This document shows positions 16,601 through 58,744 of a stretch of DNA of 64,000 nt, one piece after another (positions within the stretch are counted from its first letter, which is position 1; each line of letters starts with the position of its first letter). The stretch is from Leptogorgia sarmentosa (taxonomy: Eukaryota). A model generated the notes under the pieces. That model had not been told where the DNA came from, made no database searches, and worked only from the letters and a program-made list of their open reading frames with translations. Location of the stretch: assembly GCA_964658305.1 (NCBI GenBank), contig OZ210885.1:7564001-7628000 (forward strand). Direction: 5' to 3'. Both the position numbers and the translations under genes were made by a program.

Positions 16601-19600
16601 AAGACCGTGTGATGTAAGCACTTCAAAAGTCTGTAGGAGAGGAATGAGGAAATGTCAGTAAGTTAGATTGTTAAATGCATGCAAAATTAAAACACGTTCC
16701 TAAATGATATTTGTTAATCAAAATACTTTTCCATTTTCTATAGCCCCCACGTGCGATCCCTCTTCACAATTCACTTGTGGTGACGGTGAATGTTTCCCTA
16801 TTTCTTTTCATTGCGACGGCGATAATGACTGCCCTGACTCCTCGGACGAACAGGGTTGCCCCCCACCACCCACTTTCGCTCCTTGTCCAGCTCACAAATT
16901 TGGATGCAGTGACGGAGAATGTTTACCGCTGGACTGGAAGTGCGATGGTGCATCAGACTGCAACGATGGAACAGATGAATTGAGCTGTCCTGCAACGTGC
17001 ATGAGCATGCAGTTTACATGCGCGCAATCGGGAAAGTGCATTTTCCAGCATTCAAGGTGCGACGGTATTGAAGATTGTGGAGACGGTTCGGATGAAGCGA
17101 AATGTGGTGAGTGGCAGTTGAATTAAATCAAGTATCGTCGATTGCAATTAAGAATGAACAGTTGCATATAAAAAGATTGATAAATCTGTTAATTTATTGG
17201 TATAGCACAGATTATTATTCACTGCATGTTTTCCAGTTAAAGTTTCGTTTTACTAATCATGATTCTGGGGAGTTGGTTGTATCAAGGGTGAATAGAGCAC
17301 TATCCAATAGCTTGTTTTTATCGCTTTCAGACTGAATGCAATGTTTGTGTCCTTCATATGTACAGAATTTATAAAGAGACTGTGGTACACTGAATTTAGG
17401 ACATGCAATTGGGCGAAATTTAATGAAGCTAATTTTTTTCCGTTTAAGTTTCTTTAGAACATCCCATGTCATGCAGTGATGCTAGTTCGTTTCGTTGTGG
17501 AAGTTCGCCATATTGTATCAACGCGACCAAAGTGTGCAATGGTTTGAGAGATTGTCCCCGTGGGGAAGATGAAGCACCTAACTGTGGTATGTATTATGCT
17601 TCTCTTACCGGAAGAGAATCACATACAGGCCCAAAAAGGCAAAAACTATGTGCGTATTATGTATTATGTACTATGTAGTTAACAGATCTACTGATTTTCT
17701 TTGCCGCTTTTCTGTTGAAACTAATATTCATTTGATGCATTTTTTTATAATGCGGATGTAAATTTTCTCATATGTGACTGTGTATCTACATTGCATTTTA
17801 ATAGGAATCGACGAGTGTTCTGATCATAATGGTCACTGTATTCACAAATGTAAAGATCTTCCTATTGGTTACGAATGCCATTGTAATAAAGGCTACAAAC
17901 TGGCCAACGACAGCAGATCATGTGAAGGTACGAACGTTGAGGCATGGCTCTGCATTGTCACTATAATATGTTGTGCGCTACTTTTACGATGATTTATATT
18001 GCAGACCTAAACGAATGCGAAGAGGTGTATGGCTCCTGCAGTCAGACGTGTGTTAACTTCAAAGGACACTTCAAATGTGGTTGTGTCCAGGGTTATCGTA
18101 AGGAAGAGGATGTCACGTGTCGAGCGACAGGTGAGAGATCACTGGGTACGCCGGGTATGCCTTTTCCTGGCGTAACATGTTTGCAATGAAACTGATAAAG
18201 GTTGACGGGGACGATTCATTGATTCGTGAAGACTATTGAAGATATGTTGCTAAAGATTGTATATTATTTGCGAAATTTTCTAGGCCCACAAGCGTATCTT
18301 GTCTTTGGTGGCGAACATGCCATTCACAATCTCACAGTATCCGGGATTCACTACGGTGATGTTGTTTTAAATCGCAACGCACCAATTGCCATAGGCCATG
18401 ATGTCAATAATGGATACGTTTACTGGAGTGATATTCTTGATGGAACGATTGAACGTGCACGATTATTGGGTGATGGAACTGCGGAGACAGTTGTTAAGAA
18501 AGTAGTACACTCAAATGGTACGTTTAACCGATCTAAGTCAATGTTGTTGGCTACCTGCATGTTTCTATATTATAAATTTGTACGCCTTCTTTCAATCTAA
18601 TGTTGGTTAATATAAATTAAAAAATCTAGGTGTGGCCATTGATTGGATTGGAAAGAAAATATATTGGACCGATGAAACATTGAAATCCATTGAAGTTTCT
18701 GAATTCGATGGCAAGAATCGTTTAAAACTATTCAGTGCCAGCTTAGACGCGCCGCGCGGTATAGCTTTGGATCCATTTGAAAGGTAGGATTACTACTTAT
18801 CTGTATATTTTGAGCTGGGATGGTGCGCAAGCCATAATTAACTTCTTGTCAAATGTAGGCTATGTAGCTTTCAATTAACCAATCTTCCGAACTTTCAGCC
18901 AATGTTCTTGAGTTAAAAATAATAAACCAGCGAAATTAAATGAATACTTTAGACAAGGCTAGATAGAAACCAATGAGGATTTCTTTACTTCTAGGTATAT
19001 ATTCTGGACAGATTGGGGTGGAGTACATCCTAAAATTGAGCGAGCAAGTATGGATGGCAATTTAACTTCTCGCAAAGTTATCCTTGACACTGACCTCGTC
19101 TGGCCAACTGCCTTGACAATAGATACCATCACTCAGAGGTTGTTCTTCGCGGACACAAAATCGCAGCGAATAGACACGATCAAATACGACGGTTCGGCGA
19201 GAAAGACTTTGATCTTCAAAGGACTTGTTCACCCGCTAGGTTTGGCAGTGTTTGAGGATCGTCTGTACTATACTGATTATTCGCTTGACACCATATTCAC
19301 CGTCAACAAAAGAACTGGCCAACGATTAGGTGAACTGAAAAACAATTTGAGAAGTCCTACGGGTGTGAATGTTGTTCACCCATTGCATCAGAAACAAGGT
19401 AAGGCAGTGAATGATTTAATTTCTTTCTCCGCTTCACTGTGTACGTGAAACTGAACAGAAAACGCAACCGAAAAATTATATACACAAAATTTATTTCTTT
19501 AGTCCCCACACAGTGCGCCAGAAATAACGGTGGCTGCTCTCATCTCTGCCTGCTTTCAAACGTTTCCGCAAAAAATCACACCTGCCGCTGTCCAAACGGA

Positions 19601-20374
19601 ATGGTGTTGAGAAAAGATGGCAAATCCTGCGTTCATAGCGACGAATCAAATTCAACGACACCTAGCAAAACCAGCCCCTCTCCAACGATCAGGATTGTAT
19701 CTACTGGCAAACCTAGCCAGACCAGTCCATTCGGGACGACCAGAAAGAGTACAACAAGTAACAAAGGTAAGGAATGTCTTTGCGATGGCAACAAAAAGTC
19801 TTATTTAAAAGAACGTATAAAATAATACTGTCCTGTATTAAAGTGACAATCTGCATGTATTGTCACAGCTCACAAGTGGGCTCCCGCAAGGTTTTTAGCT
19901 TTTTACCGTTTTTAAACAACTTTTGATTGTTACTCAGTGACTATTAGGTCAGTGATTATTAGGCTAATCCCGCAACAGTTTGTTTCAAGAATTAAGCAAG
20001 ATATGAAAAATCTGTGAAATAGCTATGCCTTTATAAATAATTTAGAAACGTTCTTTAAGACTTCAAGACTGGTTCTGAAAAGAATTTTGATCTTTGAACG
20101 TTTGTATAATCTAGATGGTACGCTGGGCAAGAAACAGGGTGAATCATCTTCAAACAGCGGACCAATGATAGCTGGAGTTACTGTGGCTGTTTTGGTACTC
20201 ATCTTCCTGCTCATTGTCGCTTTCTTGTATTGGCGAAGACAAAGCAAGATGGCGGATAGAAGAATTCTGTTTTACAAAGTTAACTCCACAACGCCGCTGC
20301 AAAACGACTTCAATGAAGAGCTTATCAAAAGCCACGAAAACATTGGCGGAATGTCACGCGTGCAATTTACATAA
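13668..20374 (+). CDS. VLDLR/LDLR-family lipoprotein receptor (signal peptide, 8 LDL-A, 2 EGF, YWTD propeller, EGF, S/T-rich, TM, short tail)
   Basis: 14 exons, all GT-AG and phase-compatible: 13668-13746, 14676-14798, 14906-15031, 15285-15407, 15716-15832, 16744-17106, 17458-17586, 17805-17927, 18005-18130, 18284-18517, 18630-18783, 18995-19398, 19503-19766, 20115-20374. Motifs DCxDx[43 protein letters not shown]. Confidence 0.95.
15926..16441 (+). mobile_element. Crypton-like family A copy 2, in intron 5 of the receptor gene
   Basis: Hairpin plus right end ATTTATACTAA; minus-strand ORF 16146-16328 [37 protein letters not shown] followed by a GT donor matches the CryptonA/DUF3504-type N-terminus. 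Confidence 0.75.
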
Positions 20375-21358: not shown

Positions 21359-21650
21359 CCAAGTAGCTGCCATATTTTCACATAAATATTTCATATTTCA
21401 CATAATTATTTCGTATTGTTCTGATACGAAATACAGCGCTTAGGGTCGGAGTGGACCAGCTACCTGGAACTAGTTCGCCGATTAACTTAAGTAAACCCAT
21501 AGCACAGAGTATAAATCATAGAGAGATGTAACTGGCGTAAATCAATATGAAAAAAACTCGCATTTTCACGTACCCACTTTTTTAAGTTTCAATGCGATCG
21601 TAATTGGATTCGTAATTGGATTTATATTGAGTTTCAATAGGGAAGAGGTT

Positions 21651-21735
21651 GCCTCTTTAGCTCAGGGGTTAGAGCACTGGTCTAATAAAACAGCTAGGAA
21701 ACCGGGGGTGCAGAGTTCAAATCTCTGAAGAGGCT
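21651..21735 (+). tRNA. Intron-containing tRNA-Thr body with anticodon mutated AGT->AAT (intron 21688-21699)
   Basis: Full cloverleaf GCCTCTT/AAGAGGC; 12-nt AAACAGCTAGGA after position 37. Confidence 0.75.
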
Positions 21736-21869
21736 TTGTGAATAAGTGTTCATCCATTTCCTTTTTTGTAATTGGTTACAACGTATGCAGTTAACTCTCG
21801 AAATTGTATGGGAAGTGTGACCTGAAAATTTTTGAAGTGAAATTATTTTATTAAAAACACGTGATAATA

Positions 21870-21932
21870 CGGGAATTGGCCCCGGCCCATGGCGGTGAAA
21901 ACGCCAGATCCTAACCACTAAACCATATGTGA
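21870..21932 (-). pseudogene. tRNA-Glu(TTC) pseudogene
   Basis: TGGCG TT TTC AC CGCCA arm; T arm and 3' end degenerate. Confidence 0.8.
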
Positions 21933-21977
21933 GTGATAACTTGTTCACTATTCCTGTGCTTCAAAGCCAGTTTAATC

Positions 21978-22048
21978 TGCGTTGGCGGGGAATCGAACCC
22001 CGGTCTCCCGCGTGGCAGGCGAGAATTCTACCACTGAACCACCAACGC
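21978..22048 (-). tRNA. tRNA-Gly(GCC)
   Basis: GCGTTGGTGGTTCAGTGGTAGAATTCTCGCCTGCCACGCGGGAGACCGGGGTTCGATTCCCCGCCAACGCA. Confidence 0.95.
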
Positions 22049-22515
22049 AAAGTTGCCCAATTATTTCGTTATAATGTTCATATTCCACAAGATGCCGAAC
22101 ATTTTCACCAAACACCTTCAAATAATAAATCAGAGTAAATTCTTGGAAATTGTTCAAATCACTGCTTCAAATTAAAATTTTCAGAAAAAATTCCCACGCC
22201 GGGAATCAAAACCGGGCTATAAAGGCATACTCTGTTAAAAGCTCCTTTACCCAATAACAAAATCAAGGAATTAAAATCAAGAATTTAAAAAACGATACAA
22301 AACTAATAATAATTATGTACATTATGAATCAATTTGTGGGCATTATTCCTGAATCTTTTGTTGCTGGAATTAATTCTTTATTAATCGTGCCAACACGTAA
22401 AAGAGGTTGATATCGGAAAATATTGACTTTACTTTTTTTCCGTTATGGATGAAATTACGAGTTTTCCCAAAATATGGATAAGAAACATGAACTTTTGAAA
22501 TTCACATATCAATTT

Positions 22516-22561
22516 TCGCTTTGGGTGCCAGAGGTCATGGGTTCGATTCCCGTGCAAGCCC
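22516..22561 (+). pseudogene. tRNA-Pro(TGG) 3' fragment
   Basis: tcgctttgggtgccagaggtcatgggttcgattcccgtgcaagccc. Confidence 0.75.
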
Positions 22562-22638
22562 TTATAATTAACCAAGTAAGACGTTGTATTTTTTGAAAGC
22601 TTTCGTAAATCCTAAGAAAACCCCACCCAAACACGTCA

Positions 22639-22662
22639 CGTCCCTGGTTGGACTCGAACCAA

Positions 22663-22706
<44 letters not shown>

Positions 22707-22712
22707 AGAGAC
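22639..22712 (-). tRNA. tRNA-Asn(GTT)
   Basis: Complete cloverleaf, TTCGG CT GTT AA CCGAA. Confidence 0.95.
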
Positions 22713-22880
22713 TGACTCCATTGAAAACCTTCCGAAAAGAAAACAAAAAATACTGGATATTATTTTTGTTCAAAATTGGATTTTTAGCCAAGGCCATATG
22801 CGACGGCAACAATAAACAGAACTTCAACGGTGACGATGCCCGCAATGGTGATTACAATACTTTCTGGTGTTTGAAACAGA

Positions 22881-22952
22881 TGCCGTGACCAGGATTCTAA
22901 CCTGGGTTATTGCGGCCACAACGCAATGTACTAACCACTATATGATCACGGC
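22881..22952 (-). tRNA. tRNA-His(GTG), T-loop mutated (TTAGA), probably pseudogene
   Basis: TTGCG TT GTG GC CGCAA; compare intact copy 29687-29758. Confidence 0.8.
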
Positions 22953-23063
22953 GACGTCGTTGGAAGATTGGAAAATGTTTTGGAACGGCTGAGATATTAC
23001 ATTAATGCCCTATTTTCCCCCGTCAGTGCAAAGTACAAAAGAAAACATTTTGATATCATCAAT

Positions 23064-23119
23064 GGCTTGCTGGTCGCTTAGGGTGCGAGAGGTCACGGGT
23101 TCGATTCCCGTGCAAGCCC
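23064..23119 (+). pseudogene. tRNA-Pro(AGG) with D arm deleted
   Basis: ggcttgctggtcgcttagggtgcgagaggtcacgggttcgattcccgtgcaagccc. Confidence 0.8.
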
Positions 23120-23235
23120 TAGTTAATTAACCAAGTAAGACGATCTCTTTTTTGAAAGATTCCATAAATCCTTAGAAAATCCCGCGCAAAAAAATCGGTT
23201 ACATTTACCGTCACGACGTCTGAACACACCAAACA

Positions 23236-23259
23236 CGTCCCTGGTTGGACTCGAACCAA

Positions 23260-23303
<44 letters not shown>

Positions 23304-23309
23304 AGAGAC
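23236..23309 (-). tRNA. tRNA-Asn(GTT)
   Basis: Identical body to 22639-22712. Confidence 0.95.
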
Positions 23310-23563
23310 CAACTCAAAAACTTTCCCAAAAGAAATGTAAAAATAACGGATATTACTATTTAATAACAATACACTCGTGAGTTTTCCGAAAACCGCAAAT
23401 AGCACTCGTCCTTCGGACTCCAGCTAGAAGTTGAAAACTTTGCTTTAAAAAAGTTCCTTCGACAACTTCTTTTTATAACTTTTCTCTTTTTTCTCCTACA
23501 CCCAAATCATAACCACCCATAACACCAAAATTTTGCCAAATACTTTCTGGAAATTTGCTCTTC

Positions 23564-23633
23564 CGTAGTCGGCAGGATTTGAACCTGCGCGGGAATTTCC
23601 CAACAGATTTCTAGCCTGTCGCCTTAACCACTC
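23564..23633 (-). pseudogene. tRNA-Ser(AGA), 5' truncated
   Basis: Long variable arm, CT AGA AA loop, first ~12 nt missing. Confidence 0.85.
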
Positions 23634-23811
23634 AAATGAATTCTCATTCTGCGAGTAAAATCAAACAAAATATTTTAGTAATCGTTTTCAAGTATTGGTG
23701 GATAGATTTAACACGAATCGTAGTATATGCATCTCAACTCTTTGGGTCGCATATTTCCCATCAGCCTGCTTTAAAGAATTTGAAAGTTTTCCAGTTTATA
23801 GGTATGGTAAG

Positions 23812-23883
23812 AAGGAGCGGGCGGATTTGAACCACCGACCTCTCGATCTGCAGTCGAATGCTCTACCACTGAGCTACACTCCC
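23812..23883 (-). tRNA. tRNA-Cys(GCA)
   Basis: GGGAGTGTAGCTCAGTGGTAGAGCATTCGACTGCAGATCGAGAGGTCGGTGGTTCAAATCCGCCCGCTCCTT. Confidence 0.9.
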
Positions 23884-24187
23884 TGTGTAGTCGACTAGGT
23901 TAATTACGTACATATGATTTCAAACGCAGCTATAATCAATTCACGGACCTCTGTATTTTCAATTTTACATTCAAATACAAAATCTTTCTTGGCATGTTTC
24001 ATAACCTTAATACAATAAAAAAATGCGACTTCTTTCCGTTGATTTTGTAGATGGAAAACGTGGCATTGAATCTGTCACTTTAAACACTCAGCCCCCACCA
24101 CCGAGAACACAACTTCCTGTCATCGAGTTTTTCCCCAAAACAATTCATGTTTATCTTCGAGGACAAAATTTTAAAGACTTTGCATAA

Positions 24188-24269
24188 CGTAGTCGGCAGG
24201 ATTTGAACCTGCGCGGGAAACTCCCAACAGATTTCTAGTCTGTCGCCTTAACCGCTCGGCCACGACTAC
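24188..24269 (-). tRNA. tRNA-Ser(AGA)
   Basis: Complete 82-nt cloverleaf with variable arm. Confidence 0.95.
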
Positions 24270-24591
24270 GTTGCTACAACCAACCGGTTTCACGTTGTTC
24301 ATTAATGAACATTCACATCCATCTACAACTGACCTACACACTCTCAGCGCTACACTCTGAACAATAGAAACTTTCTATTTTGAGGTCTTTGCAAAACTCA
24401 CTCGTGCAAGTTAATTCCAAATTCCACTCGAAACCATTCTATTAGCAATGCTTATTTATTTCCAAACGTAGTGAAAAGGTGGAAAGATATGAAACTTGAA
24501 CTAAAATATATAGAATGCTACCTACCTGTGCAGGAACATGCCTGAATTTGCCTGAAGCCACATTTTACCTCCAGACAAGGTCGCCAACTTT

Positions 24592-24662
24592 GCGTTGGTG
24601 GTTCAGTGGTAGAATTCTCACCTGCCACCCTTGAGACCGGGGCTTGATTCACAGGAAACGCA
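24592..24662 (+). pseudogene. tRNA-Gly(GCC) pseudogene
   Basis: 5' half intact, anticodon and T stems broken. Confidence 0.8.
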
Positions 24663-24886
24663 GAATGTTTTCATTTTGTTGCATTTCAATTGCAACTCGG
24701 GAAAAAATGTGAGTTCGTAACACAGACATGATCTCGAAATTGTAACTCGCCATGGCCCGGGTTCTATTCATCGGATTCACTTCAAGGTCAAACACTTGTG
24801 GCGATCCTGTCACTCAAAATTTTCTTCGAAATTCAAATTAAAAATATTATTGTTATTTTCACATTCCGAGAAAAGATAAATGTTTC

Positions 24887-24958
24887 TCCCATGTGGTCCA
24901 GTGGTCAGGATCTGGCGCTCTCACCGCCAAGGCCCGGGTTCGATTCCCGGCATAGGAA
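24887..24958 (+). tRNA. tRNA-Glu(CTC)
   Basis: TGGCG CT CTC AC CGCCA; one acceptor mismatch. Confidence 0.9.
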
Positions 24959-25165
24959 TATTACTTGCGAGAGAAGGGGAAAAATGCAATTTGAAAAATT
25001 AGCAAGGCCATTGTTATTATGCTAGCTCTATCCCTCTTACCCATTCATGTTTAAAGTGTAACTATTTCCTAGAACTTATTCTAAATTTTTATTTGAAGGT
25101 GTTTGGTGTAAATGATCGGCATCATGTGGAATATGAACATTATAACGAAATGATTGGATAACTTT

Positions 25166-25236
25166 GCGTTCGTGGTTTAGTGGTAGAATTCTCGCCTGCC
25201 ACGCGGGAGACCGGGGTTCGATTCCCCGCCAACGCA
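25166..25236 (+). tRNA. tRNA-Gly(GCC), two substitutions
   Basis: Inverted paralog of 21978-22048. Confidence 0.85.
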
Positions 25237-25281
25237 GATTAAACTGGCTTTGTAACACGGGAATGGAGAACAAGTTATCAC

Positions 25282-25344
25282 TCCCATGCAGTTTAGTGGT
25301 TAGGATCTGGCGTTTTCACCGCCATGGCCCGGGGCCAATTCCCG
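25282..25344 (+). pseudogene. tRNA-Glu(TTC) pseudogene
   Basis: Same T-arm lesion (ggggccaattcccg) as 21870-21932. Confidence 0.8.
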
Positions 25345-25482
25345 TATTATCGCATGTTTTTAATGAAATACACTCACTCCGAAAATTTTCTTTCAGGTCA
25401 CACTTCTCATACAATCTCGAGAGTTAACTTCATACGTTATAACCAATTACAAAAGAGGGAACGGATGAACACTTATTCACAA

Positions 25483-25567
25483 AGCCTCTTCAGAGATTTG
25501 AACTCTGGACGCCTGGTTTCCTAGCTGTTTTACTAAACCAGTGCTCTAACCCCTGAGCTAAAGAGGC
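25483..25567 (-). tRNA. tRNA-Thr(AGT) with 12-nt intron (25519-25530)
   Basis: CTGGT TT AGT A [AAACAGCTAGGA] A ACCAG; all stems pair. Confidence 0.8.
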
Positions 25568-25771
25568 AACTTCTTCCCCATTGAAACTAAGAATATAAAT
25601 CCAATTACGAAGTTAATTAATTTAAACTTGAATTCCCGTATTATCATGTGTTTTTATGAAATAAACTCACTTGAAAAAATTTGCTTCTGGTCACACTTAT
25701 ACAATCTGAAGAGTTAACTGCATACCTTGTAACCAATCACAAAAAGGAAATGGATGAATTCTTATTCACAC

Positions 25772-25844
25772 AGCCTCATCAGAGATTTGAACTCTGGACC
25801 CCTGGTTTACGAAACAAGTGCTCTAACCCCTAAGCTAATGAGGC
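25772..25844 (-). tRNA. tRNA-Thr(CGT), mismatched, possibly pseudogene
   Basis: CTTGT TT CGT AA ACCAG on a Thr body. Confidence 0.75.
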
Positions 25845-26211
25845 GACCTGCTAAAATCTTCCTAGCATGTTTTTTGCAACGTAGTACTCTTTCAATAGCT
25901 TTTTTATTTCTTCAGTTTTAACTCACTGAACAGCAGCACATGGAATACCATCTGGGCGTTTGTCTTCCACGTTCTTCAAAGTTTACGAAGAAAAAAAAGC
26001 CTCAACAGAGATTTGAACTCTGGACCCCTGGTTTATATTATATTACTTTCGCATCCTGCACTGATGTGATGTTTCAAAATGATAAAAATACGAGTGAAGA
26101 TTATGCGCTTGTTTTCATACTTCGTAAAACGTTACCATTTAGTCTTTGATTGATTTATAATATCGAATATATTTCAAGCTAGAAAGCGGTAGTCTGATAA
26201 CGATACTTTTG

Positions 26212-26284
26212 AGCCTCATCAGAGATTTGAACTCTGGACCCCTGGTTTACAAGACCAGTGCTCTAACCACTGAGCTAATGAGGC
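26212..26284 (-). tRNA. tRNA-Thr(TGT)
   Basis: CTGGT CT TGT AA ACCAG; intronless. Confidence 0.93.
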
Positions 26285-26387
26285 AAATTCTTCCCATTGA
26301 AACTCAGAATATAAATCCAATTACGGCATTAATTGCCGATAGCATCAGAGGCCGGCTGTACGAAATTCGATATCAACTTTATCCACT

Positions 26388-26426
26388 CAGATCAGAAGGT
26401 TAAGTGTTCAATTCACTTCAAGGTCA
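26388..26426 (+). pseudogene. tRNA-Trp 3' half
   Basis: cagatcagaaggttaagtgttcaattcacttcaaggtca. Confidence 0.75.
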
Positions 26427-26522
26427 AGCACTTCTGGCCACGCTGTCTCTCGAAATTTTCTTCGAAATTCAAATTAAAAATATTATCGTTATTTTCACAT
26501 TACGAGCAAAGATAAATGTTTC

Positions 26523-26594
26523 TCCCATGTGGTTCAGTGGTCAGGATCTGGCGCTCTCACCGCCAAGGCCCGGGTTCGATTCCCGGCATGGGAA
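26523..26594 (+). tRNA. tRNA-Glu(CTC)
   Basis: Complete cloverleaf. Confidence 0.93.
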
Positions 26595-26875
26595 TTAATA
26601 CTTGCGAGAGAAGGAAAAAATATGCAATTCTACAAATCAGCACAACCGTTGCTATTATAGTAGCTCTATCCCACTTACCCATTTTTTTGGTGTTTTCTGT
26701 ATTTAAGTCCGAATTGACATGATCTTGCTTTTCACAAAAAAATCCTTTTGCTGATCAGGTTTAAAATGTAACAATTTCCTAGAACTTACTCTGATTAATT
26801 ATTTGAATGTGTTTGGTGAAAATGCTCGGCATCTTGTGGAATATGAACATTATAGCAAAACAATTGGGCAACTTT

Positions 26876-26946
26876 GCGTTGGTGGTTCAGTGGTAGAATT
26901 CTCGCCTGCCACGCGGGAGACCGGGATTCGATTCCCCGCTAACGCA
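26876..26946 (+). tRNA. tRNA-Gly(GCC), G53 mutated
   Basis: Gly body with two substitutions. Confidence 0.8.
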
Positions 26947-27036
26947 GATTATTTTCATTTTGATGCATTTCAATTTCAACTCCAACACGAAAAACAAACT
27001 GGCTTCGTAACACAGGAATAGTCAACAAGTTATCAC

Positions 27037-27108
27037 TCCCATGTGGTCTAGTGGTTAGGATCTGGCGTTTTCACCGCCATGGCCCGGGTTCGATTCCCGG
27101 CGTGGGAA
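27037..27108 (+). tRNA. tRNA-Glu(TTC)
   Basis: Complete cloverleaf followed by a T-run terminator. Confidence 0.95.
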
Positions 27109-27194
27109 TTTTTTCTCAAAATTTCAATTTGAAGCAGCTTGTGTTCACATTTTCAAACTGGTTCTCTGAAACCAAACCATTTTAACACCGCTAC

Positions 27195-27249
27195 GACCTT
27201 GTGGCGCAATTGGTAGCGCGTCTGACTCCAGATCAGAAGGTTAAGTGTT
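27195..27249 (+). pseudogene. tRNA-Trp(CCA), 3' truncated
   Basis: TCTGA CT CCA GA TCAGA; ends in the T loop. Confidence 0.85.
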
Positions 27250-27291
27250 GAAAGTATTAATTAAGAGAGATGATATTGTCAGCGCGTCACA

Positions 27292-27373
27292 GGTAGCGTG
27301 GCCGAGTGGTCTAAGGCGCTGGTTTAAGGCACCAGTCATTTCGTTGGCGTGGGTTCGAATCCCACCGCTGCCA
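27292..27373 (+). tRNA. tRNA-Leu(AAG)
   Basis: CTGGT TT AAG GC ACCAG, long variable arm. Confidence 0.93.
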
Positions 27374-27429
27374 AACTTTCGTTGTTCATCGACGTTGTGG
27401 TTGATTGAGCTGATATAAATTTCAAAACG

Positions 27430-27795
27430 CAGGGGCGCCGGAAGCTACCTGAAGCGGCGGGGGCAGCCAATTAAAAAGGGCACCTTTTTCTAGACATTAA
27501 ATGTTCCTGTGCGGTAATGTTCGGTAAGATTTTCCTATATGGATACTGGACCACACTGCAGAAGATGTTTTTACATAAAATAAGTTCGATCCGATTTTTT
27601 TTTACGTATTACTTTACATCGAATTATAATTAAGAAACACAATTACATCTGTTAACGCTAATAATGCATGATTAATGAAATATCCTTCATATCCTCCATG
27701 TGGAAAAGGGCAACGAGTTGCCCCCGCACTGCCCCCGCACCGTAAGGGAAACGGGGGCAGCTGCCCCCGCTGCCCCCGTGCTTCCGGCGCCCCTG
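27430..27795. mobile_element. hAT-type MITE (366 bp)
   Basis: TIR CAGGGGCGCCGGAAGC / GCTTCCGGCGCCCCTG; perfect 8-bp TSD TCAAAACG. Confidence 0.92.
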
Positions 27796-27843
27796 TCAAA
27801 ACGTGATGCATCTTATCCAAATTTTGTGAAAATTCGCAATTTA

Positions 27844-28217
27844 GACCCCTATTACACTTATATTACTTACACCGGATTACTTTTCGTTCCGAATCAATTT
27901 TGACACGGATGAAAGAAATGGCAGCGATTACACTACGCCGCTCCGCTGTGGAAGACGTCTTCGTATCGTATAATGTTGGATATTTAGGGCATACAAACAC
28001 GACATTATTTGATGCACCGGAGCCTACCGGATTAGTGATTACACTTGGCTTTTCCCGGTACGGCACATACCGGATTACTTTTCGTATCACGAACGAAGCG
28101 GAGTGATTTTTGCTCCGTGTCACGTACCGGATTACAGTGGCGTAGTGTAATCAACAGCCCAATCCGGTATAAAAATCGCTCCGCTCCGATGCAATCCGGT
28201 ATAGTGTAATAGGGGCC
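27844..28217. mobile_element. PIF/Harbinger-type MITE
   Basis: TIR GACCCCTATTACAC / GTGTAATAGGGGCC, TTA on both sides, internal taccggatt repeats. Confidence 0.8.
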
Positions 28218-28475
28218 TTATCCAGCCAAAAAGAATAAAAATGATATTTTCTGATATCACCTTCTTTTGGTCGAAACTAGTTGATAGCCACAAACTATCT
28301 GATCATGGACAGAATTTTTGCATTGTATTCTAAATTCTTGATCATTTTTCACTCTTTCGGGAGTGACTTCTATAACAGAGTATCGTTTTTGTAACCAAAT
28401 AACTGAGATTTCCAAAACAACATTGTAAGAGACATTTGCTACGTTATCCAACGTTTCAAATGCCTAGTTCAATAC

Positions 28476-28547
28476 AGGTTCTGCCGAGACTTGAACTCGG
28501 ACCACTGGATTCAAAGTCCAAAGTGCTAACCATTACCCCTCTGAACC
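28476..28547 (-). tRNA. tRNA-Gln(TTG), degenerate
   Basis: TTGGA CT TTG AA TCCAG; 5' acceptor and D region mutated. Confidence 0.75.
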
Positions 28548-28688
28548 TTAACACGTTAAAGTCAAAGATCCAATTTGTTTAACGTTTCTTCCTTTCTTTG
28601 ATACAAAGATATCACGTTTGACAAAGGTCCGTGAATTGATTATAGCTGCGTTTGATATGTGCGTATAATTAACCCAGTAGTCAACACA

Positions 28689-28760
28689 AGGAGTGTAGCT
28701 CAGTGGTGCTCTATTCCACTGCAGATCGAGAAGTCGGTGGATCAAATCCGCCCACTCCTA
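28689..28760 (+). pseudogene. tRNA-Cys(GCA) pseudogene
   Basis: Inverted paralog of 23812-23883 with D-stem and T-loop damage. Confidence 0.8.
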
Positions 28761-28981
28761 CTTATCATACCTATAAACTGGAAAACTTCCAAATTCTTTA
28801 AAGCAGGCTGATGGGAAATATGCGACCCAAAGAGTTGAGATGCATATACTACGATTCGTGTTAAATCTATCCACCAATTAAATAAACCACTATCCTATCC
28901 ACCACTAAAATATTTTCTTGGATTTTACTGGAAGAATGAAAATTTATTCATTTCGAAGTGGAAGCGATGTTTAATGCCAAT

Positions 28982-29063
28982 GTGGTCGTCGTCGAGTGGT
29001 TAAGGCGACAGACTAGAAATCTGTTGGGAAATTCCCGCGCAGGTTCAAATCCTGCCGACTACG
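28982..29063 (+). tRNA. tRNA-Ser(AGA)
   Basis: Full length, few 5' substitutions. Confidence 0.85.
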
Positions 29064-29313
29064 GAAGAGCAAATTTCCAGAATGTATTTGGCAAAATTTT
29101 GGTGTTATGGGTGGTTATGATTTGGGTGTAGGAGAAAAAAAAAAGTTATAAAAAGAAGTTGTCGAAGAAACTTTTTTAAAACAAAGTGTTCAACTTCTAA
29201 CTGGAGTCCGAAGGACGAGTGCTATTTGCGGTTTTCGGAAAACTCACGAATGTATGTTATTAAATAGTAATATCCATTATTTTTACATTTCTTTTGGGAA
29301 AGTTTTTGAGTTG

Positions 29314-29319
29314 GTTTCT

Positions 29320-29363
<44 letters not shown>

Positions 29364-29387
29364 TTGGTTCGAGTCCAACCTGGGACG
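29314..29387 (+). tRNA. tRNA-Asn(GTT)
   Basis: Two acceptor-stem substitutions. Confidence 0.85.
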
Positions 29388-29503
29388 TGTTTGGTGTGTT
29401 CAGACGTCGTGACGGTAAATGTAACCGAATTTTTTGCGCGAGGTTTTCTAAGGACTTACGAAAGCTTTCAAAAAACAGAACGTCTTACTTGGTTAATTAA
29501 CTA

Positions 29504-29575
29504 GGGCTTGCACGGGAATCGAACCCGTGACCTCTCGCACCCAAAGCGAGAATCATACCACTAGACCAGCAAGCC
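29504..29575 (-). tRNA. tRNA-Pro(TGG)
   Basis: CTCGC TT TGG GT GCGAG, complete. Confidence 0.95.
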
Positions 29576-29686
29576 ATTGATTGTATCAAAATGTTTTCTA
29601 ATGTACTTTGTACTGACGGGGGAAAATGGGGCATTAATGTAATATCTCAGCCGTTCCAAAACACTTTCCAATCTTCCAACGACGTC

Positions 29687-29758
29687 GCCGTGATCGTATA
29701 GTGGTTAGTACATTGCGTTGTGGCCGCAATAACCCAGGTTCGAATCCTGGTCACGGCA
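29687..29758 (+). tRNA. tRNA-His(GTG)
   Basis: Complete cloverleaf. Confidence 0.95.
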
Positions 29759-29925
29759 TCTGTTTCAAACACCAAAAAGTATTGTAATCACCATTGCGGG
29801 CATCGTCACCGTTGAAGTTCTGTTTATTGTTGCCGTCGCATATGGCCTTGGCTAAAAATCAGATTTTGAACAAAAATAATATCCATTATTTTTTGTTTCT
29901 TTTCGGAAGGTTTTCAATGGAGTCG

Positions 29926-30002
29926 GTCTCTGTGGCGCAATCGGTTAGTGCGTTGTTAGGCTGTTAACCGAAAGGTTGTTGGTTCGGGTCCAACCAGGGC
30001 CG
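29926..30002 (+). pseudogene. tRNA-Asn(GTT) with 3-nt insertion
   Basis: gcgttgttaggctgttaaccgaa. Confidence 0.8.
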
Positions 30003-30268
30003 TGACGTGAGCTAATGAGGCAAATTCTTCCCATTGAAACTCAGAATATAAATCCAATTACGGCATTAATTGCCGATAGAATCAGAGGCCAGTTGTACGA
30101 AATTCGGATATCAACTTTATCCACTTGATAGTGATTTTTTCAACAGTTGTAAAAATAGACAAAATGTTGTAAAACTGAACATATGGGCGTGGCAATCAAT
30201 AAATGAAGCAGCTTGTGTTTATATTCTTAAACTCGTTCTCTGAAACCAAACCATTTTACCAGCGCTAC

Positions 30269-30341
30269 GACCTTGTGGCGCAATTGGTAGCGCGTCTGAC
30301 TCCAGATCAGAAGGTTAAGTGTTCAATTCACTTCAAGGTCA
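30269..30341 (+). tRNA. tRNA-Trp(CCA)
   Basis: Complete; in left arm of palindrome 30171-30664. Confidence 0.93.
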
Positions 30342-30493
30342 AGCACTTCTGGCCACGCTGTCTCTCGAAAATTTCTGCGAAATTCAAATTAAAAATATTA
30401 TCGTTATTATCACATTCCGAGAAAAGATAAATGTTTCTAAATAAATTTGAATTGCGCAGAAAATTTTCGAGAGACAGCGTGGCCAGACGTGCT

Positions 30494-30566
30494 TGACCTT
30501 GAAGTGAATTGAACACTTAACCTTCTGGTCTGGAGTCAGACGCGCTACCAATTGCGCCACAAGGTC
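30494..30566 (-). tRNA. tRNA-Trp(CCA), one anticodon-stem substitution
   Basis: Right arm of the palindrome. Confidence 0.88.
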
Positions 30567-30866
30567 GTAGCGCTGTTAAAATGGTTTGGTTTCAGAGAAC
30601 GAGTTTGAGAATATGAACACAAGCTGCTTCATTTATTGATTGCCACGCCCATATGTGCAGTTTTATAATCTTAAAGTAGAACTGAGAGTACCGGTTACTA
30701 GCTTGAATTATATTCGATACTATAAATCAATCAAAGACTGTAAATGGTAACGTTTTACAAAGAATTTAAACCAGTGCATAATCTTATCTCTTATTTTTAC
30801 CATTTTGAAACATCACATCAGTGCAGGATGGGAAAGTAATATAATTCTACAGCAAGCTTTTGAGTT

Positions 30867-30939
30867 GCCTCATTAGCTCAGGGGTTAGAGCACTGGTCTT
30901 GTAAACCAGGGGTCCAGAGTTCAAATCTCTGATGAGGCT
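30867..30939 (+). tRNA. tRNA-Thr(TGT)
   Basis: Complete, intronless. Confidence 0.93.
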
Positions 30940-31356
30940 TTGTTCTCTTCGAAAACTTTGAAGAACGTGGAAGACAATCGCCCGGATTGTATTCTATGTG
31001 CTGTATGTGCTGTTGAACTCTTCCGTGAATTAAAACTGATGGAATACAGAAGCTATTCGAAGAGTACTATGTTGGAAAAAAATGCTATGAAGATTTTAGC
31101 ATGTGACCAGGGGTCCAGAGTTCAATTCTCTGATCAGACTGTGGCAATAAGTATCCATCGTGAATAAGAATTCATCCATTTACTTTTTGTGATTGGTTAC
31201 AAGGTATGCAATCAACTCTCCAGTTTGTATAAGTGTCACTTGAAACAAAATTTTTCAAGTGAGTTTATTTCATGAAAACACGTGATAATACGGGAAATTC
31301 AGTTTAATTAACTTCGTAATTGGATTTATGTTCTGAGTTTCAACAGGGAAGAAGTT

Positions 31357-31388
31357 GCCTCTTTAGCTCAGGGGTTAGTAAAACAGCA
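31357..31388 (+). pseudogene. Remnant of intron-containing tRNA-Thr(AGT)
   Basis: gcctctttagctcaggggt-tagtaaaacagc: internal deletion that keeps AGT and the start of the intron. Confidence 0.7.
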
Positions 31389-31431
31389 GAGTTTGAGAAT
31401 GTAAACACAAGCTGCTTCAAATAAGAATAAA

Positions 31432-31503
31432 TTCCCACGCCGGGAATGGAACCCGGGCCATGGCGGTTAAAACGCCAGATCCTAACCACTAGACCACATG
31501 GGA
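31432..31503 (-). tRNA. tRNA-Glu body with TTA (ochre-reading) anticodon; B-box G57->C
   Basis: TGGCG TT TTA AC CGCCA; otherwise matches 27037-27108. Confidence 0.8.
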
Positions 31504-31592
31504 ATGATAACTTGTTGACTATTCCTGTGTTACAAAGCCAATTTTTTCTCGTGTTGCAGTTGAAATTGAAATGCAAAAAAATGAGAATAATC

Positions 31593-31664
31593 TGCGTTAT
31601 AGCGGGGAATCGAACCGGGTCTCCCGCATGGCAGGCAAGAATTCTACCACTGAACCACCAACGC
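31593..31664 (-). pseudogene. tRNA-Gly(GCC), degenerate
   Basis: Gly body with several substitutions and a 1-nt insertion. Confidence 0.8.
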
Positions 31665-31944
31665 AAAGTTTGGCCAATGCTTTCGTTTTGTTCTTATTCC
31701 ACAAGATGCCAAACATTTTCACCAAACACCTTTAAATAATAAATCAGAGTAAGTTCTAGGAAATTGTTTCACTTTAAACATGATCAGCAAAGTAAATATT
31801 TTTGTGGAAAAGCAAGATCATGTCAACAAAGACTTAAATACAGAAAACACCAAAAGAATGGGTAAGAGGGATAGAGTTAGTATAATAGCAACAGTCTTGC
31901 TAATTTCTCGAATTGCATATTTTTTCCTTCTCTCGGAAGTATTA

Positions 31945-32016
31945 TTCCATTGCGGGGAATCGAACCCGGGCCTTGGCGGTGAGAGCGCCAGATCCTGACC
32001 ACTGGGCCTCATTGGA
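31945..32016 (-). pseudogene. tRNA-Glu(CTC), degenerate
   Basis: Anticodon arm intact, acceptor stem damaged. Confidence 0.8.
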
Positions 32017-32112
32017 GAAACATTTATCTTTTCTCTAAATGTGAAAATAACGATAATATTTTTAATTTGAAATTGGAAGAAAATTTCGATAGCCAGCGTG
32101 GCCAGAAGTGCT

Positions 32113-32185
32113 TGACCTTGAAGTGAATTGAACACTTAACCTTCTGATCTGGAGTCAGACGCGCTACCAATTGCGCCACAAGGTC
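32113..32185 (-). tRNA. tRNA-Trp(CCA)
   Basis: Complete cloverleaf. Confidence 0.93.
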
Positions 32186-32271
32186 GTAGCGCTGTTAAAA
32201 TGGTTTAGTTTCAGAGAACGAGTTTGAGAATGTGAACACAAGCTGCTTCAAATTGAAATTATCAGAAAAAA

Positions 32272-32343
32272 TTCCCACGGCGGCAATCGAACCCGGGCCA
32301 TGGCGGTGAAAACGCCAGATCCTAACCACTAGACCACATGGGA
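32272..32343 (-). tRNA. tRNA-Glu(TTC), two 3' substitutions
   Basis: Glu body; C61 of the B box altered. Confidence 0.8.
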
Positions 32344-32468
32344 GTGATAACTTGTTCACTATTCCTGAGTTACAAACCCAGTTTGTTTCTCGTGTTGCAT
32401 TTGTGGGTTAAATTATGAACCAATGGTGAATCGTTAAGAAACGAATACAGTCATGAACAACGAATAAA

Positions 32469-32550
32469 TGGCAGCGGTGGGATTCGAACCCACGTCATCG
32501 AAATGACTGGTGCCTAAAACCAGCGCCTTAGACCACTCGGCCACGCTACC
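32469..32550 (-). tRNA. tRNA-Leu(TAG)
   Basis: CTGGT TT TAG GC ACCAG, long variable arm. Confidence 0.93.
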
Positions 32551-34283
32551 TGTGACGTGCAGAGAATATAATTTCTTTTTAGTAAACATCCACATCGTTT
32601 GAAGAGATTCCTTTCGCTATCGACGAAACGTAGAAACGTGAGACAATGGGGAAATATTGTCGTGCTAAGGTTCTGTGGTGTAATGGCTGCAGGTTCTCTT
32701 AGCTGGTAAATAACAAAAAATATATATCCCTACCTAAATTTTTATATCCCTAACTTGAAATTACAAATATTTGAAGATACTTTTGCCTGTTGTATTTACC
32801 TTATTTTAGTAGTGATTCCAGTCATTCACTACAGGGGAACCAAACACAAATTCGTTTTCATTTATTTTGTCGCTGAAATCACCGTAGATGCCATCCCAGG
32901 GCTTTGCAACTTCAAAAATTTTCTGGGGAAGAATACCCCCATAGCGTGTCACCTGCACAAGCACAAGCAGCTTAAAACACTACATAGGCATGTCAGCAAG
33001 CAAATTTAAAGAATGATATGGAAACCACATTAAGTCTTTTAACCACAAAAGTTACTCAAATGAAACAAAACTTTCGAAATATATTTGGGGACTAAAAGAT
33101 AATAAGATAGATTTCGACATTAATACGTGTTCAATAATTGAACAGTGTATTTCGTATACGGGATATATATTTCACCACTTCTAAAAACCTGGGAAGATTT
33201 TTTCATGATACGAAGATAGACTAATTCAGTAATGTAATATTGGTCAGTTTTTCAAAAGCTTCGGAAATATATCTTTCACGTGATATAATGATACGAAGTC
33301 GGACTATAATTACGTATCGTAATATTATACATTGTAGGTAAAACAGTATTATGTCAATGGACATAAAAACAAAACGCAAATGTGTCGATAGATAATCAGC
33401 AAGTAACAAGGACCGAAGTTCCTGCATCTGTGAGCTGTCAAACATGGCACTATATTCATCTAGCTAAGCCAAAGATAATGCAAAGCGACAGGGATTATAA
33501 ATAAGAGAAGGAAAATGAAATAAAGTTGGATCTAATTAACATTTTTCGGGACACTGTATGGACTGACAACTGCATACATGTATACAAACTGCTAGTAAAT
33601 ACACATTGTCTGAATGAACATGCCAAAAATTTCTGTAACGAACATGCCACCTTTGCGTCTCCTTTTTGACACAACCAACCGAAGCGCACTCCGAGTCTCC
33701 TTCTGATCTCTATGTGTGTCTGCTGTCTACCATTTCCGCACTCACGCGCCGGTCGTGAAAGAGTGCTACCCGGCAACTAGGTGAGCGAGCGCATGAAAAA
33801 AGCAGTGAAGAGAAAGTTCGCCGGTAATGTCGTCTCCCTGGAAATAAAACAACCACGTTGGTTTCAACCAGTGATGTTTGTTCAAATCCCGAGCGCTAAA
33901 TTTTTCGGATTAAGATTATCACTAAAAAACGTTTTAAAAAATAATGACAATAAGATTGTTATAAAACTACTTATTTGTTGTATCATCTGTGAAGTGATGT
34001 ATAGTTTTAGTTGATTGAGGCATTCCATCAAAGAACAAAGCTAGTGATAAAAACTTTGACAACGTGAAATCACGCATGCGCTATAAACTGAAAATTGAAT
34101 ATTACCTTCCGGGCGGCCACGTCCCGTAATCTTAAGCTCGCTTTTCTCTGTTAAAATATGGCTCGGAATAGCAAGTTAAATTGCCTCCGGGCGAAGTTGA
34201 AGAATCGAAGAATCGAAGAGTTGAAGAATCGAAGAGTTGAAGAATCGAAGAGTCAAAGAAGTGCTGTGAATTCCGTTCGTGTT

Positions 34284-41058: not shown

Positions 41059-42108
41059 TGAACCATGCGTATGATAGCTACGCTCATATGTCTGCATGTT
41101 GGGTATTTCGTGAAGCGGAACTTTCAATCGATCGATTGTACCATAGCTTACCATATAGTTATACCGACTAACAATATTCGAAAAAGGTCATAGACATCGT
41201 CGTAGTTACGTTTCAGATAATTTCCAGAGTGAAGGAAATACTTTATTTCAGTGAAGAAAATTTTTCAAAACAGGAGTTCTCATATTCAAATTAGCCAGAA
41301 ATTATTGTGTTAGTTGGCAGATCGAATTGATTAATGCATAAAAAAACACAATGACAAGATCATCAAAGTACTTAGGCTTCAAATATTTAGATTGAGTTAT
41401 AGCCGAGAACGCCTTATAGTGATAAGGGAGAACGAAATTGTTAATTTGAATGTTGTATTTGTTAATAACATCTTCCAAATTTTGTTTACAATCCTTACCC
41501 ATATACATTAATATTATTTCCCGAGTTTATGTTCTGAATATCCGGCAAGAGATGTATTCAGCGAATTGGAAAAATGCGAACATCTGTTCTGGAGTCCGAC
41601 AGCCGAAAGTGTGCAACCCTTTAGAGAAATAGTCCAAGATGTTGGCCCTGTAATGTCTTTGTACACTAGGAAAAGCTAACCCAGAGTCCGGAATAGTACA
41701 TTCAATGCAAATTGAATGAGATGAACTGCATAAATTTTTTTGGGATCACTTCGCGGCTTGGTTACCAAGCACTGATCCAATTCTGAATCTAAACAGAAAA
41801 TATTGTTTTTTCTTTTTCTTTTTGTTTTTCTAATCCAGGCCCAAACAGCAATTCTGACCCTAACAACAAAATGCTGAGAAAAAAAGCTTGAAAGAAAGCA
41901 AACAAAATGACAAAAAACCAACTCGCTGCTGGCGATTCGGCACCATATCCTCTGAGCTAACGAAGCTCGACAAAATTGCCGGTAAAAACCTTTTATATGA
42001 ATTGATTTTGCAATACAATATATATAAAGTACGCGCAGTTACTAAGCAAGTGATCCCAAAAAATTTTTTTGCCAACCGCATACGTTTAGTTATCATCTCG
42101 CTATTATC

Positions 42109-43104
<996 letters not shown>

Positions 43105-46268: not shown

Positions 46269-46280
46269 ATAAGAATCTAG

Positions 46281-55710: not shown

Positions 55711-56605
55711 ATCCCCAGTGGTTATGTCACTTAAAAACTTCGCCACTCGCACGTCTTCTTCCCCCGTCCCTGCCACATTGTAGTATTTGTCTGACGTCGT
55801 CACCGAATGGGACATCTGTTTCGCCAGCTGCTCATCGCTGACAGCTGACGAAGGCCCCATTTTCCTCTGTTTGCTTATGAGAGATTTCCGGAGGCCAGCT
55901 CCGTGGACGTCCACGCCCATCCTTTGTCCATCACCTGTATTCGCTGGGAGACCCCGGATTATGTCAAACGCTGTTCCGAAGCGTTTACGAAAAAGATATG
56001 TTCGGACGGTATACCCGGCTTGCCTTCCGTCACCGAGTCGCTATTCGGGTGGGGCCTCAATTGTGTCAGGTACTTCTGGCCCATGTTCTTAATCTCTTCG
56101 TTCCAGAATAACTTGGCTGGTCCTACCGAGGAGCCCGTCTTGTGTTGTGTCGTTTGCGTGACGTACAGCTCACGTGTCTGTGTGCCGGCCTCGAACTCCG
56201 CCACCGTGAGGTTGGCGAGTTCCCCTGCTCGCTGACCGCTTGCGACCAAGAGCCGGAGCATTAGGTAATCTCTCATCTGGGAAAAATCGATTAAAGCAAC
56301 GGGCTCGTCTTCCTCGAGTTCTTGATAACGTCGGCGAATGGACAGGCTCATTGGACTCGACAACATTCGGGCGAAGTCGTCAGGACCAAGAAGACCCTCT
56401 TGGTCCCTTGTCTGACCTCCGCCCGACGGCGAGTCAGCACTGGTGCTAATGAGCCAGTCCAATGTTTGATGCGTGTGAGGGCGGCTTGCACGAGTTCGAG
56501 TTCATGGCTTGACACGCTGCTGTCGATTCTTGTTATCCCCTCCACCCTACTCAACATGAAGTTCAGAAAAAGTTTAAATGATACCACATACGTTTTGAGG
56601 GTCAA
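55690..56605 (-). pseudogene. Tyrosine recombinase of an animal YR element (Crypton-like), frameshifted
   Basis: Catalytic motifs in order: SGQRAGELANLT (R), HKT (K), GLRKS (R), QMSHS (H), DKYY (Y), spread over three frames. Confidence 0.85.
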
Positions 56606-56864
56606 AACATATGTGGTATCAGTTAATAAATTGTTTCGAGACTGGGATCTCGTTTAAGCTTACATTAGGATACTTACGCGGATACGAACGTGACGAAGGT
56701 TCTATCCATCTTACTATAGCTGAGCGTTTTGCAACTCGGCGATTATAGACTGGTGTGATGATCGACTAAGTCGAATTTACTATAATACGGAAAGAATGCT
56801 CCGATTCAAACGGGTAAAAATACTCCAACCTTATTTATACTCCAACCAATATTGAATAACGAAT

Positions 56865-58679: not shown

Positions 58680-58744
58680 GGTGGACTCGAACCCATGGCT
58701 CTCAGATTAAAAGTCTGATGCTCTACCAACTGAGCTAACCGGGC
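58680..58744 (-). pseudogene. tRNA-Lys(TTT), 3' end lost
   Basis: GCCCGGTTAGCTCAGTTGGTAGAGCATCAGACTTTTAATCTGAG...GGGTTCGAGTCC. Confidence 0.85.

What the first reader, a model, noticed from the sequence alone, without database searches (positions are those of the whole stretch)
25483..25567. tRNA-Thr(AGT) with a canonical 12-nt intron and anticodon-intron helix
Seen: AAACAGCTAGGA lies exactly between positions 37 and 38 here and in the inverted paralog 21651-21735, and partly in the remnant 31357-31388. In the consensus CTAGT-A-[aaacaGCTAGga]-A, intron GCTAG pairs with CTAGT (32-36), putting C32 opposite the third-last intron base G. Established: that is the A-I pair geometry used by the eukaryotic TSEN endonuclease, and the familiar animal intron tRNAs are Tyr-GTA, Ile-TAT, Leu-CAA and Arg-TCT. 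The TGT and CGT Thr genes here have nearly the same body without an intron. Inference: lineage-specific intron gain in one Thr isoacceptor, possibly linked to I34 or m3C32 modification.
Basis: partly seen in the sequence, partly recalled or inferred. Interest (0 to 1): 0.72.

Follow-up and report, generated by a model that had tools for sequence, protein, structure and literature searches.

The report
tRNA intron born by tandem duplication
An animal threonine tRNA gene carries a 12-base insert at the usual intron site that likely arose as a recent tandem copy of its own anticodon loop and is predicted to be spliced out, which would show one way new tRNA introns are born; splicing itself is untested.

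Summary
The insert is real: 12 nt at 37/38 of a Thr-AGT gene (25483-25567, -) and of an inverted paralog. This copy has U32 and the paralog has anticodon AAT, so both look damaged. Public runs show C32 is the majority letter and that contigs span the insert in organisms A and B, not in organism C or a coral metagenome. New point: the insert repeats tRNA positions 32-43 in tandem (10/12, 11/12 in a common variant; p 0.024 and 0.003 with the helix letters fixed). Positions 32-35 are a palindrome, so an exact copy already folds with anticodon-intron geometry. Intronless Thr-AGT genes coexist in organism A; in B none with the same 3' exon is inferred. Thr introns are not unique: 18 other distinct Thr inserts in metagenome contigs all have C32:G(-3), although a 2025 paper calls such introns essentially absent in animals. 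No RNA evidence was obtained; a pseudogene family remains possible (about 0.3).

The parts
25483..25567 (-). tRNA-Thr(AGT) gene with 12-nt insert; weakened allele (U32, private C45)
25531..25567 (-). 5' exon, positions 1-37
   Evidence: sequence
25519..25530 (-). 12-nt insert at 37/38 (predicted intron)
   Evidence: spanned without gaps by contigs of X1, X4, X7
25483..25518 (-). 3' exon, positions 38-73
   Evidence: sequence
25525..25536 (-). first copy of the 12-nt tandem unit (positions 32-37 plus insert 1-6)
   Evidence: period-12 match 9/12 in this copy
25513..25524 (-). second copy of the 12-nt tandem unit (insert 7-12 plus positions 38-43)
25521..25525 (-). insert letters 6-10, predicted to pair with positions 32-36 (25532-25536) as the anticodon-intron helix
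25451..25454 (-). first run of four T, 29 nt downstream; possible Pol III terminator (inferred)
21651..21735 (+). paralog with the same insert (21688-21699), anticodon AAT, G42, G48: likely pseudogene
25060..25619 (.). arm of a 560-bp inverted duplication (other arm 21601-22154) that carries both full copies
   Evidence: 89.8% identity
31357..31387 (+). remnant: 5' 22 nt of the gene fused to the anticodon end and first 7 insert letters; 3' exon lost
   Evidence: a longer form of this remnant is a loose end in X1
26212..26284 (-). intronless Thr-TGT gene; shares its upstream flank with the insert-bearing gene
25772..25844 (-). intronless Thr-CGT gene with U29 and U32 changes; shares its downstream flank with the insert-bearing gene
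30867..30939 (+). intronless Thr-TGT gene

Best explanation
The 12-nt insert likely arose recently as a tandem duplication of tRNA positions 32-43 in a Thr-AGT gene and, in majority-type (C32) copies, is predicted to be cut out by TSEN like any canonical intron. Steps: (1) inferred: a 12-bp tandem duplication, mechanism not determined (no end microhomology seen). (2) Computed: because C32-U33-A34-G35 is self-complementary, the second copy pairs with the first, putting C32 opposite the third-last insert base with a 3-nt bulge at the 3' site and the 5' site in a 6-nt loop. (3) Shown in run contigs: one change in the first copy (C to A at the letter matching 40; no reversion listed at 1-2%) and a later T-to-G change at insert letter 11. 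(4) Shown: the form is present as several sequence variants in organisms A and B; inferred: it spread by tRNA-cluster duplication or conversion, coexists with intronless AGT genes in A and may have replaced them in B. (5) Inferred from known pathways: Pol III transcription, TSEN cleavage and RTCB ligation give an ordinary tRNA-Thr(IGU). The copy at the finding's coordinates is a weakened allele of this family.
For: Period-12 self-match 9/12 in this copy, best of periods 5-24. 10/12 with C32 and 11/12 with T at insert 11; with the four helix-forced letters fixed p=0.024 and 0.003. The T11 form is real: in X4, contigs of depth 57.3 and 9.7 cross the insert without gaps and the sums close exactly (94.4); in X7 the sums close too (300.2). 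None of 17 other distinct Thr-TGT/CGT inserts exceeds 0.59 on the same score. Intron fold -31.8 against -19.4 kcal/mol for the variable-arm fold; an exact duplication already prefers the intron fold (-31.8 against -26.1). Simulated duplications give canonical geometry in 34-79 of 90 cases for Ser-AGA, Thr-AGT and Leu-AAG and in at most 1 of 90 for the other 32 valid rows (6 of 42 rows mis-parsed and dropped). No depth crosses the insert in X8 or X9; X8 holds an intronless AGT contig of depth 5167. Of the three insert variants listed in runs, one is in the bulge and one keeps a U33.G wobble; the third (one contig, depth 4.7) breaks the U36 pair. Geometry matches PMC6614914 and PMC10275265.
Against: No RNA evidence: the only possible RNA run laid (X21, kind not on record) gave 0 contigs. 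Both window copies are damaged, and a U30+U32 degenerate subfamily is itself amplified (depth 27.4 of 94.4 in X4, 30.4 in X7), so multiple copies do not show function. Intronless AGT genes coexist in organism A (a degenerate contig seen directly in X1; about 90 depth inferred in X4), against the usual all-or-none pattern (PMC4090602). U6 makes up 19-36% of depth in X1/X4/X7 while A67 is under 1%, so many U6 copies may carry a U6.U67 mismatch (linkage to the insert not shown). If the leading AA is also fixed the duplication p weakens to 0.088 and 0.011, and the test was made after the pattern was seen. 12 nt is below the 14-60 nt quoted for yeast, and tighter helices lowered splicing in fly reporters. 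No species tree, so gain versus loss is not polarised.
Confidence: 0.55

Rival explanations
1. Same duplication origin, but the insert-bearing genes are a pseudogene family that hitch-hiked on repeated duplication of the tRNA cluster; intronless genes supply tRNA-Thr(IGU).
For: Cluster full of decayed copies (Stop-anticodon Glu, half genes, remnant). Both window copies damaged. Amplified U30+U32 subfamily. Intronless AGT in organism A. Possible U6.U67 mismatch. Nematostella has over 17000 tRNA genes and pseudogenes, 89% clustered (PMC2888827).
Against: A clean class differing from the window only at majority letters has depth 57.3 (X4) and 83.8 plus 51.9 (X7). In X7 the T11 contigs start at 25492/25493 and run through 25525, which a k=31 graph simulation predicts only when no intronless AGT with that 3' exon exists. 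Both full window copies pair U6 with A67.
Confidence: 0.29
2. An older, ordinary intron whose likeness to a duplication comes from the need to pair with the palindromic loop; relatives without it have lost it.
For: Four of the matching letters are forced by the helix. L023's unrelated 19-nt Thr-AGT intron also ends like positions 31-37 (12/19, helix-fixed p=0.10). Thr introns occur in other eukaryotes.
Against: 7 of the 8 unforced letters match in the T11 form (p=0.003); the insert length equals the period; little divergence inside the insert across two species labels.
Confidence: 0.12
3. The RNA is not spliced: the first copy forms the anticodon stem and the extra 12 nt become a long variable arm, as ARAGORN draws it.
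For: ARAGORN's fold.
Against: It needs a G.A mismatch in the stem and is 10-12 kcal/mol worse; pair probability 0.00.
Confidence: 0.03

Closest known systems
Canonical eukaryotic TSEN introns; in animals Tyr-GUA, Ile-UAU, Leu-CAA, Arg-UCU (PMC12530127, PMC12168002, PMC6614914)
   Same: Position 37/38, C32:G(-3) pair, helix with 33-36, 3-nt bulge at the 3' site, 6 nt from C32 to the 5' site.
   Different: Thr isoacceptor, where PMC12530127 calls introns essentially absent in animals; very short; still reads as a copy of its own exons; not in all isodecoder genes of organism A; splicing untested.
Recent tRNA intron gains in yeasts: Lachancea thermotolerans Ala-UGC, Kluyveromyces lactis Gly-UCC (PMC4090602)
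   Same: Clade-limited gain in an isodecoder that is intronless in relatives.
   Different: The source of those introns is unknown and the review proposes cleavage-repair and reverse transcription; here the source sequence is visible as a tandem repeat.
Caldiarchaeum tRNA-Thr(GGU) intron gain (PMC3293823, abstract seen)
   Same: Intron-plus and other states of a Thr gene within a population.
   Different: Archaeal, tied to an integrating element with a recombinase; no such element flanks this gene.
Spliceosomal intron gain by segmental or tandem duplication (title seen in the reference list of PMC11782384; otherwise recalled)
   Same: A duplication supplies both splice signals at once.
   Different: Different machinery: here the signal is RNA structure supplied by a palindrome.

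Membership tests
Canonical eukaryotic (TSEN) tRNA intron | Insert between N37 and N38 | tested here: met
   with a tandem repeat other placements are formally possible, but this one gives the stable fold
Canonical eukaryotic (TSEN) tRNA intron | A-I pair: C32/U32 with the third-last intron base | tested here: met
   C:G in majority-type copies (P 0.98-0.99); only U.G in this copy (P 0.29)
Canonical eukaryotic (TSEN) tRNA intron | Anticodon-intron helix and 3-nt bulge at the 3' site | tested here: met
   predicted for C32 forms; register shifts in the window copy's best fold
Canonical eukaryotic (TSEN) tRNA intron | Intact cloverleaf after removal | tested here: met
   ARAGORN calls tRNA-Thr(agt) on the spliced form; pair 6:67 in other family members is uncertain
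Canonical eukaryotic (TSEN) tRNA intron | Usually present in all genes of the isodecoder | tested here: not met
   intronless AGT coexists in organism A; inferred near-complete in B; a tendency, not a strict rule
Canonical eukaryotic (TSEN) tRNA intron | Length within the known range | tested here: inconclusive
   12 nt against 14-60 nt quoted for budding yeast; human introns of about this length are recalled, from no call
Canonical eukaryotic (TSEN) tRNA intron | Transcribed, cleaved by TSEN and ligated in vivo | not testable with these tools
   no raw RNA reads among 24 runs listed; X21 laid 0 contigs
Insert born by tandem duplication | Insert length equals the repeat period and copies match beyond structural need | tested here: met
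   10/12 and 11/12; helix-fixed p 0.024 and 0.003
Insert born by tandem duplication | Relatives keep the single-copy state and the tree places it as ancestral | tested here: inconclusive
   single-copy state seen in X8, X9, X1 and inferred in X4; no tree available
tRNA pseudogene in a duplicated cluster | Private lesions at conserved positions | tested here: met
   met for both window copies and the remnant; not met for the cleanest run contigs

The most novel reading that the evidence does not exclude
A eukaryotic tRNA intron caught being born: one 12-bp tandem duplication of a palindromic anticodon loop made a splice-ready intron, which is now spreading through the Thr-AGT family of a small animal clade, half-way in one species and nearly fixed in another.
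Probability: 0.45. Interest if true: 0.8.

Novelty: new variant of a known kind. Interest (0 to 1): 0.62.

Why it matters
How a eukaryotic tRNA gene gains an intron exactly at 37/38 is posed as an open question in PMC4090602. This case offers a one-step route whose product still shows its source, with intron-plus and intron-minus genes in the same species, so cleavage and selection can be tested directly. The side result, canonical-looking Thr and His introns in other eukaryote contigs, suggests that the four-family picture of animal tRNA introns may reflect narrow sampling.

Tried and rejected
No whole genome is held, so no genome-wide count. Viral-contig scan: 0 matches. The metagenome scan found 29 stretches but no gene with this body and insert; 3 loci (L006, L016, L021) are not in a tRNA context and were dropped. 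The genome-contig scan with a 16-letter motif gave 120+ prokaryotic matches, about what chance gives, and was not followed up. Protein searches on the neighbouring LRP-like gene gave no organism names. X21 laid nothing, which is no proof of absence. The palindrome route as a general source of introns is not supported: in the ranking labels of PMC12168002's supplement AGU is 33rd and AGA 40th of 45, although AAG is 5th (values not readable, descending order assumed). L023's intron as a second duplication: p=0.10. The WIREs RNA 2020 review is not held and GtRNAdb could not be consulted.

Full report
Setting. The window is animal-like DNA (37% GC; LDL-receptor-related exons at 16704-20374, a LINE-type reverse transcriptase). 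It holds a cluster of 30 ARAGORN tRNA calls at 21651-32550 built from nested duplications. An anthozoan source is an inference: the only named run among holders is a coral metagenome with the same Thr exon sequences. No whole genome is held.

Observation. The gene at 25483-25567 (-) reads as a Thr body with 12 extra letters at 25519-25530, between A37 and A38. The paralog at 21651-21735 has the same insert and lies in a 560-bp inverted duplication; the remnant at 31357-31387 keeps 7 insert letters. With acceptor, D and T arms fixed, the 32:(-3) pair has probability 0.29 here, 0.20 in the paralog and 0.98-0.99 in C32 forms.

The family in public runs. Of 24 runs listed (best word share 0.37; all contigs, no raw reads) I laid 6. 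Gap-free contigs cross the insert in X1 and X4 (organism A, two studies) and X7 (organism B, same study as X4); no depth crosses it in X8 (organism C) or X9 (coral metagenome), and X21 laid nothing. C32 is the majority letter and G45 is in all laid depth. Depth is not copy number, but the sums identify contigs. In X4 the crossing depth 94.4 equals 57.3+9.7 (T at insert letter 11) plus 27.4 (G11, with U30 and U32). In X7 300.2 equals eight listed contigs, four G11 and four T11.

Intronless Thr-AGT genes. X8 has one directly (42-letter contig, depth 5167). X1 has at least one degenerate one (loose end at 25524). A k=31 graph simulation (depths set by hand; the break points are the test) predicts that the T11 contig starts at 25492 without intronless AGT and at 25495 with it, leaving a shared 33-letter contig. 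X4's T11 contig starts at 25495 and a left-over contig of depth 147.5 implies about 90 of intronless AGT. X7's start at 25492 and 25493 and run on, implying none with that 3' exon; 22.2 of depth is unexplained and two loose-ended variant contigs exist. This is inference from graph structure.

Origin. The gene repeats itself with period 12 from position 32 (9/12, the best of periods 5-24). With majority letters the match is 10/12, and 11/12 for T11. Fixing the four helix-forced letters gives p=0.024 and 0.003; also fixing the leading AA gives 0.088 and 0.011. The test followed the observation. Seventeen other distinct Thr inserts score 0.31-0.59. Because positions 32-35 are self-complementary, an exact duplication already folds into the intron form with C32 opposite the third-last base and a 3-nt bulge (-31.8 against -26.1 kcal/mol); the C-to-A change in the first copy widens the gap to -19.4. 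In simulated duplications only Ser-AGA (76 and 79 of 90), Thr-AGT (40) and Leu-AAG (34) often give this geometry; the other 32 valid rows give 0-1 of 90; 6 of 42 rows were genes that already hold inserts and were dropped.

Mechanism. Shown: sequence, position, repeat, spread over two species labels. Computed: fold. Inferred from established pathways: Pol III transcription, TSEN cleavage by the ruler plus A-I pair, RTCB ligation (PMC10485636, PMC6614914). The product would be an ordinary tRNA-Thr(IGU). Nothing here tests a link to I34 or m3C32; the U32 allele could not carry m3C32.

Results against. No RNA data. Both window copies are damaged and a degenerate subfamily is amplified. U6 is 19-36% of depth in X1, X4 and X7 (0% in X8) while A67 is under 1%, so a U6.U67 mismatch may be common (unlinked). 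Coexistence with intronless genes departs from the usual all-or-none pattern. AGU and AGA rank low among anticodons for intron prevalence in one supplement, so the route is not a general source.

Other Thr introns. The metagenome scan gave 29 stretches. After dropping 3 non-tRNA loci and duplicates, 17 of 17 distinct Thr-TGT/CGT inserts (13-32 nt) have C32:G(-3); several are near-identical, so independent cases are fewer. L023 also has a 19-nt Thr-AGT intron with C32:G(-3), beside a DOCK6-like gene (E 7.6e-60). Six His-GTG inserts pair U32 with A (5) or G (1). Their taxa were not determined.

Literature. PMC12530127 (passages, section 6) says introns are prevalent in four animal tRNAs and essentially absent from the others. 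PMC12168002 (passages, section 12, one supplement searched) agrees. PMC4090602 (passages, section 18 part 1 of 2) asks how a modern intron is gained at the canonical site and does not propose duplication in what I read. Also seen as passages: PMC6614914, PMC10485636, PMC10275265, PMC13578239, PMC11782384 (short direct repeats near splice sites of many intron types), PMC2888827, PMC8450103; as abstract: PMC3293823. Ten searches listed no paper whose title or abstract start reports an animal Thr intron or a duplication-born tRNA intron; only listings were seen for most hits, subscription journals and GtRNAdb were out of reach, so prior record is not excluded. The scan's own notes held nothing on this DNA.

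Verdict. A real, young, clade-limited insert with canonical intron geometry, probably born by tandem duplication (about 0.85) and probably spliced in majority-type copies (about 0.65). New variant of a known kind; interest 0.62.

Noticed in passing
L001-L005, L007-L015, L017-L020, L022-L027: Eukaryotic Thr-TGT and Thr-CGT genes with 13-32 nt inserts at 37/38, 17 of 17 distinct ones with C32:G(-3); neighbouring His-GTG genes with 17-24 nt inserts and U32:A(-3) in 5 of 6. Taxa unknown; outside the four animal intron families if these are animals.
   Followed up: partly
L023 2594-2687 and 2971-3068: Thr-AGT (19-nt intron) and Thr-TGT (23-nt intron) side by side next to a DOCK6-like gene.
   Followed up: partly
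window 31431-31504 (-): Glu(TTC)-derived copy with anticodon TTA (ochre-suppressor-like) and a changed T-loop; likely pseudogene.
   Followed up: no
window 21651-21735 (+): Ile anticodon AAT on a Thr body (G35A): an identity-shifted, probably dead copy.
   Followed up: partly
window 21601-32585: tRNA cluster made of nested inverted and direct duplications (1.4 kb 22632-23954/28621-30009; 777 bp 26388-27159/31390-32151; 511-bp inverted repeat 30167-30668), with half genes at 25998-26034 and 31106-31133.
   Followed up: partly
window 25562 and 25489: U6 occurs only in runs that hold the insert (19-36% of depth) while A67 is under 1%; the window copies pair U6-A67, perhaps a compensatory change. 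Unexplained.
   Followed up: partly
window 29926-30002 (+): tRNA-Asn copy with a 3-nt insertion before the anticodon stem, followed by a fragment of a Thr gene.
   Followed up: no
window 43278-46280 (-): Open 1000-aa endonuclease plus reverse transcriptase frame, LINE-type, beside a long (TTA)n tract near 42100-42400.
   Followed up: no
window 55959-62529: Weak tyrosine-recombinase match (55959-56501), RING-like and GRF zinc-finger frames; possibly parts of a DNA mobile element.
   Followed up: no
window 16704-20374 (+): Exons of an LDL-receptor-related gene ending about 1.3 kb before the tRNA cluster.
   Followed up: partly
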